From contig OZ024747.1 of the NCBI GenBank assembly GCA_964016885.1, forward strand, positions 496,001 to 560,000: a DNA stretch of 64,000 nucleotides, read 5' to 3'. The stretch comes from Eledone cirrhosa (taxonomy: Eukaryota). This document shows, one piece after another, positions 12,201-18,200 of the stretch (positions are counted from its first letter, which is position 1; the number at the start of each line of letters is the position of its first letter). Below the pieces are notes generated by a model. The model was not told the DNA's origin, made no database searches, and saw only the letters and a list, made by a program, of their open reading frames with translations. Position numbers and translations under genes: made by a program.

Positions 12201-15200
12201 CCTCATTTTTATGTGTAACTTGAACCATACAAGTTAACCAACATAAACATACATTTCATCTCTGATTTCTGCTGTCGACATCATTATTATGTTACTCGTG
12301 TCTCAATAACATTTATAATCCATGCTGCTAAATTGGTGACCCCGACGTAAATACAAAATATTCCTTTTAAAATTAAAAAAAAATTAGCAGTATTTTAAAA
12401 ACTTTTCGCCACGAGGAAATTTCAAAATGGCTACCGACAAGTCCTGTCTACAATCAACAACAACAACAACAACAACAGCAGCAGCAGCAGCGGCGACAAC
12501 ATTGTTTAACCACTAACCAACAACAGGGAATAGTAATATGGCAGCTTCATAGCCTTACCGATGCAACCACCACACATCATATTGTTTACTTCTATGCTTT
12601 CACATGTATTTTCAAAATTATAGCCCGGAGACATTTTTTTTTTCTTTCGATACGGCTTCCTGCAATACAAACAAGCAACACAACCTTATGTCACACAAGG
12701 TGGCAGGACGGTAAAATGGCCACGAAAACTCTCAAAAACAATATACATCTAACCCCTAGTGGCATTAGCAAACTTCTTTTTGAGTTTTCAGATAGAACTA
12801 GTGTCAGAAAGTCTGTACACTGGTGATGTGTGAACTATTTGACTTTGAAAAACTTTGAACTTATCATTGAGCATTAATTTCTCTGCTCCCTTATATTGAC
12901 TTTGAATTATCAGTTTGTTACATTCACATATTTCTTTGTAAAATGCATTTACTTGTTTTGTGCTCTTTTGCTATTTGCTTGCTCATGGTTTTTATTCATT
13001 CACATTCTTTGCTGTTTTACACGCCTGCACATGCACACATTTCTTTGTCACCTACCAACATGTTGTTCTTAGTATATGTTCTTCAAACGTAATATTCTGC
13101 GAGATCCCTTTTCACCTGGTTGAGGTGCCGTCACATGCTAGCGACTCATAGAGCTTAATTCACCTGGATTCAAACAGGCACCGCAACACGAGAATGCTAA
13201 TTGCAGCTGAACTCAAACATTTTCGCATCTCGTTGCACACTCATCGTCCATAACAACCTCTATCTTGTTATCTTACCCGACTCACTGGGAAAACAACAAA
13301 TAGAACTGGACTTGTCAGCATTTCCACCACTTCTGTGGATTCGCCCGAATTATGGAATTTACACTGCAACCCACCTACAGATTCAGCTTGCTTTTTTTTC
13401 TTTTCAAAGCAACCAGCCATTTTTTCCTGGCTCCCTAGCACATTCGGCAATACATCTGGGAGGCCAACATTTTCTCGCCTACCCATCATCTTCTTGCCAG
13501 CACTGGTAAACTATCATAATAGCTTCATCCACAACTACTGGTACAACACTTACCATTAACATTTAATGCAAGAACAGCAACTTCGCCCATGTCAGACTTT
13601 ATCCGTTTTCTGTTAGACCTTTGGTGGTCACGTATAAACTACAAAACAACTAGTCATTTGACACAGCGGCTCAACACGGCCCTTAGCGCTTCATTTTTTT
13701 TCTTGCATGCATCCTTCTGCTCAATTATTTTTTCACTGATGTGCTCTTTCAGCATTTGTTCTTGCTGATTCAATAATCTGTATCGACTTCCGTCTAGGAG
13801 GGGAGTATTGTAGTGACCTACATTCCGTGGGCTCACATACATTCTCAGTGCGTGATTTGGCTCAGCTCAGCCAATCAGCGCCAGTAGAAGAGGATGTATC
13901 CCTACGCGTCCTGAGGGAGAAATTACCCACGAAGATTTGAAGAATCTCTCTCTCGCACCAGGAACTTCGAACCAGCAACACGTATATGTGACGGTGAGAT
14001 TTTGCACCTTAGCCTGCCGGCTTTCCGGCGCAATGGCACATTCCCTTTTGTAACCTCATTTTTAAGTGTAACTTCAACCATACAAGTTAACCAACATTAT
14101 TTGTGCTACAACAAAAATAAACATACATTTCATCTCTAATTTCTGCTGTCGACATCATTATTATGTTACTCGTGTCTCAATAACATTTATAATCCATGCT
14201 GCTAAAAGAGTACATATATCAACTAATATTTCTAAAATAACCAATATCAGATATTATAAACTGTTTTTTGAGACAAGAACATAATAAAAACAATGGTGGG
14301 ACTCTAATGACATATTTATTACTTACTGGACAACCTTGTTTCTGCTTGCACTGCGCTAATTTCACATTTGTTTCAAGTTAGATGTAACTAACTTTATCTA
14401 AATCTTTATAAATCATTATCTACATTTAACTAAACCTTAAATCTCTATAAATATTTTACTACTTTTAACTAAATTTTATGTCTTTAGAAATTTAGAAATA
14501 TTTACAAACTAAATTTTATTCCATTTTAACTAAACGTGAAATATATTTGAAGATTTGAAGTTTTATAAATCTTTATCTGCTGTAAAATATTACTTTATAA
14601 GTTTATAAAGAAGTTATTTTGTCTAAGAGTTTGTGCTATACACATACATTTAGACAGAAAACAAACTTGTTGACAGACTGACAGACAGGTAAATAGATAG
14701 TTAGATTGATCAATAATCAATACTGAACTTAAAAAGAAATGAAAATGATAAAACATTAAAAGGTTTACTTACAAATTGGCTTAAATTGGCGTCAGGATCC
14801 TACAAATAGAATTCTAAATCTTTATAAATCATTATCTACATTTAACTAAACCTTAAATCTCTATAAATATTTTACTACTTTTAACTAAATTTTATGTCTT
14901 TAGAAATTTAGAAATATTTACAAACTAAATTTTATTCCATTTTAACTAAACGTGAAATATATTTGAAGATTTGAAGTTTTATAAATCTTTATCTGCTGTA
15001 AAATATTACTTTATAAGTTTATAAAGAAGTTATTTTGTCTAAGAGTTTGTGCTATACACATACATTTAGACAGAAAACAAACTTGTTGACAGACTGACAG
15101 ACAGGCAAATAGATAGTTAGATTGATCAATAATCAATACTGAACTTAAAAAGAAATGAAAATGATGAAACATTAAAAGGTTTACTTACATATTTTCTTAA

Positions 15201-18200
15201 ATTGGTTTCAGGATCCTACAAATAGAATTAGGAAAGGTTGTTGTAATTTATACTTGATATATATATAAAGCTGTGATATATATTTCAATGATGATCTAAG
15301 TTACTTGATTATTTAACTATTATATGTGGCAAGACTCATCTAGGATAGTATTGATTTGGGTGGTGGTTAAGTGGTCAACTTTCTCCACCTCTGCGTCTGC
15401 GCAAAGCTGTGGGGATGTTCAGAATCTCACAGGAGAACAGGCAATCCCAACAAAAAGCTTAATCTTTATGTCCGATCCCTTGCATCTTGGACTGCCTCAG
15501 AAATGTAACCTGTTACTCAATATTGTTGTCTGATGAGATCGCAACGTTAAATAATCAGGTGACCATGATCATCATTGAAATATGTATCACAGCTTTATTA
15601 ATAAACGACTCTTTAACATCTACAACTTCACATTTTCCTCATTCTAATTATACTCTGTCATTCATATTTTGAAGAAGTAACATGATGTTGAGCGCTTGAA
15701 TTGAATTGCATCCATGTCTACTGTATGTATATATATATATGCTATATAACATGCACCAGTAGTGATGAAAGGTCCTGTTAGATGTACCTTGTAAACACTG
15801 ACAAATAGGATCTTAGTTGTAGGAGCTGGAGAGTGCCCTCTGGCAATGGATGATACATCCAAAATATAGGGACCAAATGATCTGAAGAGTGGCCAACAAA
15901 TAAGTGAATAAGACATCAGGCTATAAATTTTACTTATAATTATATATACATCACTGTTCTTTAGTGGTTTAGTCTGTTTTAGCCAACATCAGATCTATGT
16001 TGGCACAAGATGAAAAGTCTGAAAGATTTAAATGGTTACTAACCTCATTCTTGAGGATCTGTAATGAGAATTGGAAAAGAAGACATATAATTTACTCCTT
16101 TCATTATGTGTGTGAGTTTGTGTGTGTGTGTGTGTGTGTGTGTGTGTGTGTGTGTGTGTGTGTGTGTGTGTGTGTGTGTGTGTGTGTGTGTGTGTGTGTG
16201 TGTGTGTGTGTGTGTGTGTGTGTGTGTGTGTGTGTGTGTGTGTGTGTGTGTGTGTGTGTGTGTGTGTGTGTGTGTGTGTGTGTGTGTGTGTGTGTGTGTG
16301 TGTGTGTGTGTGTGTGAGTGTCTGTGTGTGTGTAGTAGTAGATAAAGATGACACAACAGAAGGAAACAATTAAAGCATGGGAGTTAAAAATATATTTAGG
16401 TTACACAAAACTATGAACAATGTTTGTAGAAATGAAATATTTCTAGCGAAAGATAAGAAAGGATCTGAAGTTTCAGATAAAACCATTTATGAAAATAGAA
16501 TTCAAAAAATAAAGCCATAAGAAATAAAACAAAGTATTGGAATTATACAGAGCTGGAGAGCAGATGTGGTTTAAATGGTTCAACAATGCTTTAAGCTTCA
16601 TAGGTATTAATAGTCGGCACAATCATCTTTTATTATCACAGCTTGTATGTACGTGTTGAATGGTATAATCAACAGTTTTTAATGTATACATTTCCCAAAT
16701 GGTGACTAGTTCTGGCACTCATATATGATCATTTTTTGCTGTTGTATCCAGGGGAGGTCACTCTGTGCTTTTATAAATGGGTGTATTGTCCCATTTCATA
16801 ACCTGGTTATCTTGTATAATATTACATACATATATACATACATATATATATACATACATACATATATATATATAAAGGTTTACATATATATATATATATA
16901 TATATACATATATACATATACGTGTTTTGCAACGGGTCACTTTGTGGCTCAATGAAAAGTTAATAAATTAAATAATCAGTGCTATATATCATAATACATG
17001 TCTATAGAATCACCAGATAAAATATATACCATTTCCTCTCCTAATTAGCATAATTAACCATATAAAAAATCGAATAGACCAAGCTATAAGAATAAGGCTA
17101 TTTGGTCTATTCGATTTTTTATATGGTTAATTATGCTAATTAGGAGAGGAAATGGTATATATTTTATCTGGTGATTCTATAGATATGTTTTATGATATAT
17201 AGCTCTGATTATTTAATTTATTAACTTTTCATTGAGCCACAAAGTGACCCGTTGCAAAACACGTATATGTATATATATATATGTAAACCTTTATATGTAA
17301 TAATCTCCCGTTAGGTTGAGATACAAATTTGGCTGTGTTGTGCTGCGCTTTCTAGCAAAAAGCCACCAGCCGTAAGCAACTAACCACACTCCTTCCAACC
17401 TGACCGCTGCTATGTCACGATTCTTAGCCATTTTTTAATGTATTCTTGGTGCGATTACTTTGGAAAATTTATTGTCTAGATTTGAGCTAACTCCTGAAGA
17501 GTCCGGTGCTCAAGGTTCCGAAGCTATCGGATATCTTAAAATGCGGACGAAACCATGGTCGAGGTAGATAAATGTATTCTCTTTTCTCCTAGTTTATTTT
17601 ACACCTAATTCTGTTTAATTGACTGTATATCTGGGCGATTACGCTGTCAAAATATTCCATAAATATTCCGTCGCAGCCGGCGCGAAGGGCTGGTTTCGGT
17701 TATTATTTGTTGGAGATTTCTTCATAGTAGCCTTATTCTTATAGCTTGGTCTATTCGATTTTTTATATGGTTAATTATGCTAATTAGGAAAGGAAATGGT
17801 ATATATTTTATCTGGTGATTCTATAGACATGTTTTATGATATATATATATATATATATATATATATATATATATCTACATATATATATATATGGTGGCTG
17901 CCAACTCGTTGTCGAGTACGGCCACTACTTTATATCCATGTAGCAGAACCCCTACCTATGCGCTGAACGAGTGTGACTTTTTAGTCCAGCCAGCGACTTG
18001 AAAACTCTGGTACAAACGCTACACATGTGACAATTATTGACACATAGTGCTGGGCCCATGGTACCATGTGACGACAAGTGCAGAGAGATCTCCAGATATA
18101 AAGCAATGCCTGTGTCATGAAGCTTTTATAGTGAGCAAAGGCACTGCACAAAGCCAGTCCCACTCTCTTAACCAAGATGATATTTACCAAAAAGAAGAAC

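What the first reader, a model, noticed from the sequence alone, without database searches (positions are those of the whole stretch)
14397..15228. Duplicated micro-exon with 5 of 5 non-synonymous changes while its intron is ~99% identical
By-eye comparison of the 416-bp tandem copies shows about 2 differences in ~375 intronic nt but 5 in the 27-nt exon: GAT CCT GAA ACC AAT TTA AGA AAA TAT vs GAT CCT GAC GCC AAT TTA AGC CAA TTT. Every change alters the residue (DPETNLRKY vs DPDANLSQF) and the basic charge is lost. Exons evolving faster than introns is an established signature of toxin and recognition genes. Possible causes are strong positive selection, targeted mutation, or conversion that homogenises only the intron. 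The downstream copy lost the ctaat branch motif at the duplication breakpoint, so the two exons may be used alternatively or mutually exclusively.
Basis: partly seen in the sequence, partly recalled or inferred. Interest (0 to 1): 0.88.

Follow-up and report, generated by a model that had tools for sequence, protein, structure and literature searches.

The report
Octopus micro-exon gene, fast-diverging duplicate exons
Two side-by-side copies of a 27-letter exon differ far more than the DNA around them, and both are spliced into one message of a gene, probably of an octopus, that is predicted to build a small secreted protein from mostly tiny exons, a design best known from parasitic flatworms and here likely driven by selection to keep the copies different.

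Summary
The 417-nt copies differ at 5 of 27 exon bases and 2 of 390 others (p=1.5e-5; 0.002 counted as three mutation events). DNA contigs carry the head-to-tail junction, so this is no mis-assembly. One spliced 992-nt contig holds both exons in series, so the mutually exclusive idea is not supported. '5 of 5 non-synonymous' means little alone (35% expected by chance).

The pair lies in a predicted 17-exon, 207-residue orphan gene with a signal peptide and 13 symmetric micro-exons; five exons and the start of a sixth are seen spliced. Other duplicated exon pairs in the gene also diverge more than their flanks, while a dead exon copy does not. The best reading is repeated exon duplication, with selection keeping copies different on the exposed face of helices in a secreted protein. 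The target and function are inferred only; no homologue was found.

It meets a published operational definition of flatworm micro-exon genes but not the stricter one. This scan noted similar hypervariable duplicated micro-exons before, on other DNA of this genome; most of those notes had no RNA evidence.

The parts
14813..15229 (-). Tandem copy A: 14-nt acceptor flank, exon A and 376 nt of intron
14397..14813 (-). Tandem copy B, head to tail with A, 1-nt microhomology at the junction
15189..15215 (-). Exon A, 27 nt, phase 0-0, DPETNLRKY, net charge 0
   Evidence: spliced in X4 contig
14773..14799 (-). Exon B, 27 nt, phase 0-0, DPDANLSQF, net charge -2
   Evidence: spliced in X4 contig directly after A
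14800..15188 (-). 389-nt GT-AG intron between A and B
   Evidence: joint skipping 389 nt
46459..46558 (-). E1: 24 nt of 5' UTR, ATG at 46534, 25-codon signal-peptide-like stretch, phase-1 donor (predicted)
   Evidence: not seen in RNA
36653..36685 (-). E2, 33 nt, phase 1-1 (predicted)
34559..34594 (-). E3, 36 nt, phase 1-1 (predicted); older relative of E5
34401..34426 (-). E4, 26 nt, switches phase 1 to 0 (predicted)
28711..28749 (-). E5, 39 nt, phase 0-0 (predicted)
28555..28580 (-). Decayed copy of E4 without a GT donor; serves as internal control
28116..28136 (-). E6, 21 nt, one heptad (predicted); triplet with E7 and E8
27778..27798 (-). E7, 21 nt, one heptad (predicted)
27237..27257 (-). 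E8, 21 nt, one heptad (predicted)
25654..25671 (-). E9, 18 nt (predicted)
25338..25358 (-). E10, 21 nt; duplicate of E11 inside block 25130-25439
   Evidence: last 17 nt in the loose end of the spliced contig
16044..16058 (-). E11, 15 nt; E10 copy with a 6-nt in-frame gap and two residue changes, inside block 15836-16139
   Evidence: spliced between E10 and A
10118..10144 (-). E14, 27 nt; possibly an old relative of A/B (same residue 6, aromatic residue 9)
   Evidence: spliced after B
8406..8450 (-). E15, 45 nt
   Evidence: first 4 letters match the loose end
4061..4159 (-). E16, 99 nt, two cysteines (predicted)
3936..4007 (-). E17, last coding exon, two cysteines and stop, after a 53-nt intron (predicted)

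Best explanation
This is a real, recent tandem duplication of a coding micro-exon, both copies of which are spliced in series into one message of a gene predicted to encode a 207-residue secreted helical protein, and the copies likely differ so much because selection favours or preserves different surface residues. Shown: the duplication, the excess of exon differences, and the splicing of E10, E11, A, B and E14 in one open frame. Inferred: the gene grows by copying a short symmetric exon with its splice signals, each copy adding one helical module of 5-13 residues without shifting the frame. The hydrophobic and capping positions are kept and the polar face changes, either by fast fixation of new substitutions or because selection blocks conversion at the exon while conversion or youth keeps the intron alike. 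Most likely job (inferred, about 0.4): a secreted protein that binds a changing outside partner or membrane (microbe, prey or gamete) through a cationic amphipathic heptad stalk at residues 74-109, followed by the A/B modules and a four-cysteine end domain.
For: Exon vs flank differences: A/B 5/27 vs 2/390; E10/E11 2/15 plus a 6-nt gap vs 9/289; E6/E8 9/21 vs 16/112; E7/E8 10/21 vs 8/60; E6/E7 7/21 vs 18/95; E3/E5 12/34 vs 43/200. All 6 of 6 comparisons point the same way, while the donor-less copy of E4 shows 4/21 vs 28/129. Combined p=3.3e-4 over four pairs (A/B as 3 events, splice-signal positions removed) and 0.009 without A/B. The far end of the A/B unit is identical up to the breakpoint for over 290 nt, against simple edge erosion. 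A and B keep D, P, N, L and an aromatic residue and change positions 3, 4, 7, 8; the leucine codon is the one invariant codon of E6/E7/E8; L/I recur every 7 residues from 74 to 102 (shuffle p=0.027). Residues 92-109 have hydrophobic moment 0.67, net +3 (shuffle p=0.0075). The model gives one 624-nt frame with a single stop at its end and an N-terminal hydrophobic core, and fits inside the 386 nt before A and 552 nt after B in the contig. Exons outrunning introns is described for conotoxin mature exons (10.1101/107672) and for opsin exon 5 under conversion (PMC3924837).
Against: Numbers are tiny. A/B is three events; with any window allowed p=0.09. dN vs dS is not robust: pooled p=0.034 with E6/E8 but 0.33 with E7/E8, 0.23 for A/B plus E10/E11. 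Singly, E10/E11, E6/E7 and E3/E5 are not significant (p=0.10, 0.13, 0.07). Flanks of the older pairs come from local alignments, which stop where likeness ends and so understate intron divergence, and flanks of micro-exons are themselves constrained. All seven A/B differences lie in the first 124 nt of the unit, and against that part alone the event test gives p=0.068. The invariant leucine codon is post hoc (p=0.04 for that codon, 0.28 for any). Exons E1-E9, E16 and E17 are not seen in RNA; the splicing rests on one contig of one run whose kind is not on record. No homologue, outgroup, allele or tissue was available.
Confidence: 0.55

Rival explanations
1. The duplication is older than it looks; neutral gene conversion keeps the intron alike and misses the exon only because it lies 14 nt from the edge of the homology.
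For: All 7 differences fall in the first 124 of 417 nt; both intron differences lie within 84 nt of the donor (p=0.049).
Against: The other edge is identical up to the breakpoint and the 14-nt flank is identical. An old unconverted exon should carry synonymous changes; it has 0 on 4.8 sites, which is weak. The E10/E11 exon sits in mid-block (81 nt up, 208 nt down) and leans the same way.
Confidence: 0.15
2. Chance under relaxed constraint: three mutation events, two of them double-base, happened to hit a redundant spacer exon.
Against: The exon is fixed independently by RNA, so the fixed-window p=0.002-0.003 applies; three further independent pairs combine to p=0.009; relaxation can raise the exon only to the intron rate, as in the dead E4 copy.
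Confidence: 0.14
3. The duplication joined two already divergent alleles of a single exon kept by balancing selection, making heterozygosity permanent.
For: Flank divergence of 0.5% is of the order of allelic difference in marine invertebrates (recalled, not measured here); it needs no burst of new substitutions.
Against: No allele was seen: X1-X3 carry exon A without change and X4 carries A and B without change, but these are at most two samples of one study.
Confidence: 0.11
4. A mutation process is aimed at these exons.
For: All five differing sites are A in copy A (p=0.016, post hoc); earlier scan notes report the same exon excess in unrelated genes of this genome (unchecked).
Against: No synonymous change in A/B or E10/E11; K, R and E codons are A-rich, so loss of charge gives the same skew; no such mechanism is known to me in molluscs.
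Confidence: 0.04
5. Assembly artefact: two alleles stitched in tandem.
For: The DNA runs may be the sample that was assembled, so they are not independent of it.
Against: Short-read contigs contain the junction, the shared part has about double depth, and a second sample's spliced contig holds A then B.
Confidence: 0.01

Closest known systems
Schistosome and tapeworm micro-exon genes (MEGs) (PMC5825161, PMC8293314, PMC7653826 passages; PMC4350168 outline, passages and section 12)
   Same: Signal peptide followed by a long run of short symmetric exons, growth by exon duplication in transposon-rich introns, amphipathic helix, fast change, no homologues outside.
   Different: Free-living mollusc, not a parasite; only 43% of the coding sequence is in symmetric exons of 36 nt or less (about 80% in the original description); no exon skipping seen; no paralogous gene found; no sequence relation shown.
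Conotoxin and snake PLA2 genes, abalone fertilisation genes (10.1101/107672, passages)
   Same: Secreted products whose exons diverge faster than adjacent non-coding DNA.
   Different: There the comparison is between gene copies or species; here it is between exon copies inside one message. No toxin fold or venom-gland expression was shown.
Red/green opsin exon 5 divergence peak under gene conversion (PMC3924837, passages)
   Same: Narrow peak of divergence on an exon between nearly identical introns, which selection against conversion can explain.
   Different: Whole genes 24 kb apart with known age and known functional sites; here a 416-nt unit of unknown age.
Mutually exclusive duplicated exons (Dscam type; recalled)
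   Same: Origin by tandem exon duplication, equal length and phase.
   Different: Both copies are included in the one contig seen.

Membership tests
MEG, operational definition (PMC7653826) | At least 7 exons, at least half of them under 70 nt and divisible by 3 | tested here: met
   13 of 17 coding exons in the predicted model; 11 of the 17 are not seen in RNA
MEG, operational definition (PMC7653826) | Run of at least 4 consecutive micro-exons | tested here: met
   E10, E11, A, B, E14 spliced in series; 11 in a row in the model
Schistosome MEG, original description (PMC5825161) | About 80% of coding sequence in symmetric exons of 6-36 nt | tested here: not met
   267 of 624 nt, 43%
Schistosome MEG | Signal peptide, secreted or surface product | tested here: inconclusive
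   Hydrophobic N-terminal core (11-residue mean 3.3) in a predicted exon; link to A/B not seen in RNA; no signal-peptide predictor run
Schistosome MEG | Protein variants made by exon skipping | tested here: inconclusive
   One unbranched contig at depth 5.35; contigs drop rare forms
Schistosome MEG | High dN/dS between orthologues | not testable with these tools
   No related genomes held; within-gene pairs give mixed results
Schistosome MEG | Sequence homology to a MEG family, flatworm host | tested here: not met
   Genome is a mollusc; E16 finds no true relative
Venom toxin gene | Venom-gland expression and toxic activity or a toxin fold | not testable with these tools
   Tissue of run X4 is not on record; no family match for E1 or E16
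Mutually exclusive exon pair | Only one copy per message | tested here: not met
   A and B joined in one contig

The most novel reading that the evidence does not exclude
Octopods have independently evolved micro-exon genes: secreted orphan proteins assembled from single-helix exon modules that are copied in tandem and then driven apart by selection inside one message, so that one polypeptide displays several versions of a binding surface. With the other loci this scan noted in the same genome, that would be a hidden, genome-wide class missed by gene annotation.
Probability: 0.35. Interest if true: 0.78.

Novelty: new variant of a known kind. Interest (0 to 1): 0.55.

Why it matters
Micro-exon genes are described from parasitic flatworms and explained as immune evasion. 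A spliced example in a free-living mollusc, with its duplicated exons diverging faster than their introns, would show the design is a general way to vary a secreted protein. It also offers a small natural experiment: young and old exon pairs plus a dead control in one gene. Such genes escape ordinary gene finders.

Tried and rejected
Homologue searches used single exons, as the spliced product is not a stretch of the window. E16 found nothing in Pfam (also E1 and 38225-38085), the word-indexed protein search (3 candidates, 0 scored), the Atlas or PDB (4 hits at E 0.57-2.4). The one phmmer hit among 1.84 billion (P0001) is a repeat protein with no local alignment to the query and was rejected. 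These are weak negatives for a 33-40 residue query. My first impression that E16 resembled a VWA/Ku or phosphatase strand was recalled and found no support. No paralogous gene or retrocopy was found in G000 with E16-E17, E1, E3-E4, E6, E9-E10 or the A/B region; other hits were short repeat matches. No RNA holder was listed by the run search. RAD-seq runs X5-X7 did not cover the exons, so no alleles. A LINE protein search did not name the organism. The exon-like stretch 38225-38085 has a stop in phase 1 and was left out of the model. No structure or complex was predicted. The original MEG paper (PMC2909574) is not held.
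Full report
OBSERVATION. The 416-nt tandem duplication is present at 14397-15229. An ungapped comparison gives 7 differences in 417 nt: 5 in a minus-strand 27-nt segment bounded by AG and GT (copy A 15215-15189, copy B 14799-14773) and 2 elsewhere. Fisher p is 1.5e-5, or 0.001 if any 27-nt window may be chosen. Four of the five are two adjacent-base doublets; as three events p is 0.0022 for the fixed exon and 0.091 for any window. 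All five change the residue, but 20.5 of 25.3 sites are non-synonymous, so 5 of 5 has probability 0.35 by chance. The signal lies in exon versus intron, not in the 5 of 5.

IS THE DUPLICATION REAL? Yes. Short-read contigs of X1 and X3 run from 14720 to 15165, across exon B and the head-to-tail junction. In X2 the shared part has depth 21.8 and both flanks 11.6. These three runs are one sample and may be the one assembled. The junction has 1 nt of microhomology and cuts the CTAAT upstream of A.

IS IT SPLICED? Run X4 (a second sample of the same study, kind not on record) gave 3 contigs on 14215-15262. One, 992 nt at depth 5.35, lies on A and then on B with no differences and skips the 389-nt GT-AG intron. 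I compared its two 30-letter loose ends by eye with the exon candidates. Upstream they read the last 17 nt of 25358-25338 and then 16058-16044; downstream 10144-10118 and then four letters that match the start of 8450-8406. I infer that X4 is RNA, since no retrocopy was found in the assembly. So both copies stand in one message, and mutually exclusive use is not supported; rare skipping cannot be seen in contigs. B has a branch-like TTTAT at -26. Over these six exons one frame has no stop in 54 codons; the other five frames have 1 to 9.

THE GENE. Splice-site scans and phase bookkeeping give 17 coding exons from 46534 to 3936, 624 nt, a single stop at the end, 207 residues. E1 encodes a hydrophobic N-terminus; E2-E15 are 15-45 nt long, 13 of them divisible by three; E16-E17 carry four cysteines. 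The mature part is about 21 kDa, pI 9.1, with no second long hydrophobic stretch. The model needs 327 nt before A and 243 nt after B; the contig has 386 and 552, which leaves room for UTRs. That is consistent, not proof: E1-E9, E16 and E17 were not seen in RNA. Residues 74-102 have L or I every seventh place (shuffle p=0.027), built from 21-nt one-heptad exons, and residues 92-109 form a predicted cationic amphipathic helix (moment 0.67, shuffle p=0.0075). The genome is a mollusc: 39 matches to the molluscan hemocyanin domain. They come mostly in runs that I count as seven units, the octopus type by my recall; earlier scan notes also call it octopus-like.

REPLICATION INSIDE THE GENE. Self-comparison shows more duplicated exons. 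Exon vs flank differences: E10/E11 2/15 plus a 6-nt in-frame gap vs 9/289 (p=0.10); E6/E8 9/21 vs 16/112 (0.005); E7/E8 10/21 vs 8/60 (0.002); E6/E7 7/21 vs 18/95 (0.13); E3/E5 12/34 vs 43/200 (0.07). A copy of E4 that lost its donor shows no excess (4/21 vs 28/129, p=0.70). Taking one pair of the triplet (E6/E8, the middle of three p values), removing about 20 splice-signal positions per pair and counting A/B as three events, four pairs combine to p=3.3e-4 and the three without A/B to 0.009. Caveats: local alignment understates flank divergence in the older pairs, the E3/E5 flank includes the E4 region, and micro-exon flanks are constrained. dN against dS does not decide: pooled p=0.034 with E6/E8, 0.33 with E7/E8. 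What is kept is suggestive: D, P, N, L and the aromatic residue in A/B, and the leucine codon in all three heptad exons (post hoc).

MECHANISM. Shown: duplication, inclusion of both copies, exon-focused divergence. Inferred: symmetric exons are copied with their splice signals and add helical modules in frame; selection keeps the core and changes the polar face. Two routes cannot be told apart here: a young duplication with fast fixation, or an older one whose intron is homogenised by conversion while selection protects the exon, as described for opsin exon 5 (PMC3924837, passages). That all seven differences lie in the first 124 nt fits the second route or a neutral edge effect; that the other edge is identical to the breakpoint argues against a purely neutral edge effect. 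The job is inferred from anatomy and by analogy: a secreted protein meeting a changing outside partner. Venom, defence and gamete roles are all open; none was tested.

COMPARISON. It works like a flatworm micro-exon gene: short symmetric exons after a signal peptide, amphipathic helices, fast change (PMC5825161 passages; PMC8293314 passages; PMC4350168 outline, passages and section 12). It meets the operational MEG test of PMC7653826 (passages) but not the 80% description (43%), and no homology is shown, so I do not file it in a schistosome family. Exons outrunning introns is known from conotoxin, PLA2 and abalone genes (10.1101/107672, passages). Searches for micro-exon genes in cephalopods or molluscs (listings and abstract starts only) showed no such report; the library lacks most subscription papers, the original MEG paper was not held, and no supplements were read.

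EARLIER SCAN NOTES. 109 notes in this genome fit the word micro-exon; 8 were shown. Several describe hypervariable duplicated micro-exons at other loci, most stating that no RNA was available; one from a diatom reports splicing. None matched this place or sequence. They are unchecked leads; they suggest the pattern recurs, which raises the genome-wide reading and also keeps a mutation or conversion cause alive.

VERDICT. Real, spliced and replicated in direction, but on small numbers and with no function shown: a new variant of a known kind, interest 0.55.

Noticed in passing
window 11956-14206: Small non-autonomous LTR-like element: 92% identical direct repeats 11956-12332 and 13809-14206, with a primer-site-like motif after the first and a purine tract before the second; it ends about 190 nt from the tandem duplication.
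   Followed up: partly
window 38225-38085 (-): Exon-like stretch with a strong donor and two acceptor-like sites (141-nt or 10-nt exon); not placed in the model. A 44-nt plus 10-nt pair would keep the frame but needs a weak donor.
   Followed up: partly
window 46649-46559 (-): Possible 5' UTR intron of 90 nt after a non-coding first exon next to a GA microsatellite.
   Followed up: no
window 36717-37325, 16107-16333, 8470-9315: Long microsatellites end within about 20-50 nt of the acceptors of E2, E11 and E15.
   Followed up: no
window 15215-15189: All five differing sites are A in copy A (13 of 27 bases are A; p=0.016, post hoc).
   Followed up: partly
window 4060-4008 (-): Predicted last intron is only 53 nt; if retained, the protein would end with two cysteines instead of four.
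   Followed up: no
window 16885-17299, 28938-29102, 23578-23825: Palindromic, foldback-like elements.
   Followed up: no
window 47626-48267: 30-nt tandem repeat, 21 copies at 97% identity, about 1 kb upstream of the gene.
   Followed up: no
window 5586-7992, 18260-23100, 30444-34200, 58557-60111: Several related LINE pieces, some inverted inside introns; the one searched encodes reverse transcriptase with a PHD finger in its relatives.
   Followed up: partly
G000:C1:173.75-173.91 Mb and C26:21.93-22.02 Mb: Several hemocyanin gene copies on two contigs, plus two units on C27.
   Followed up: no
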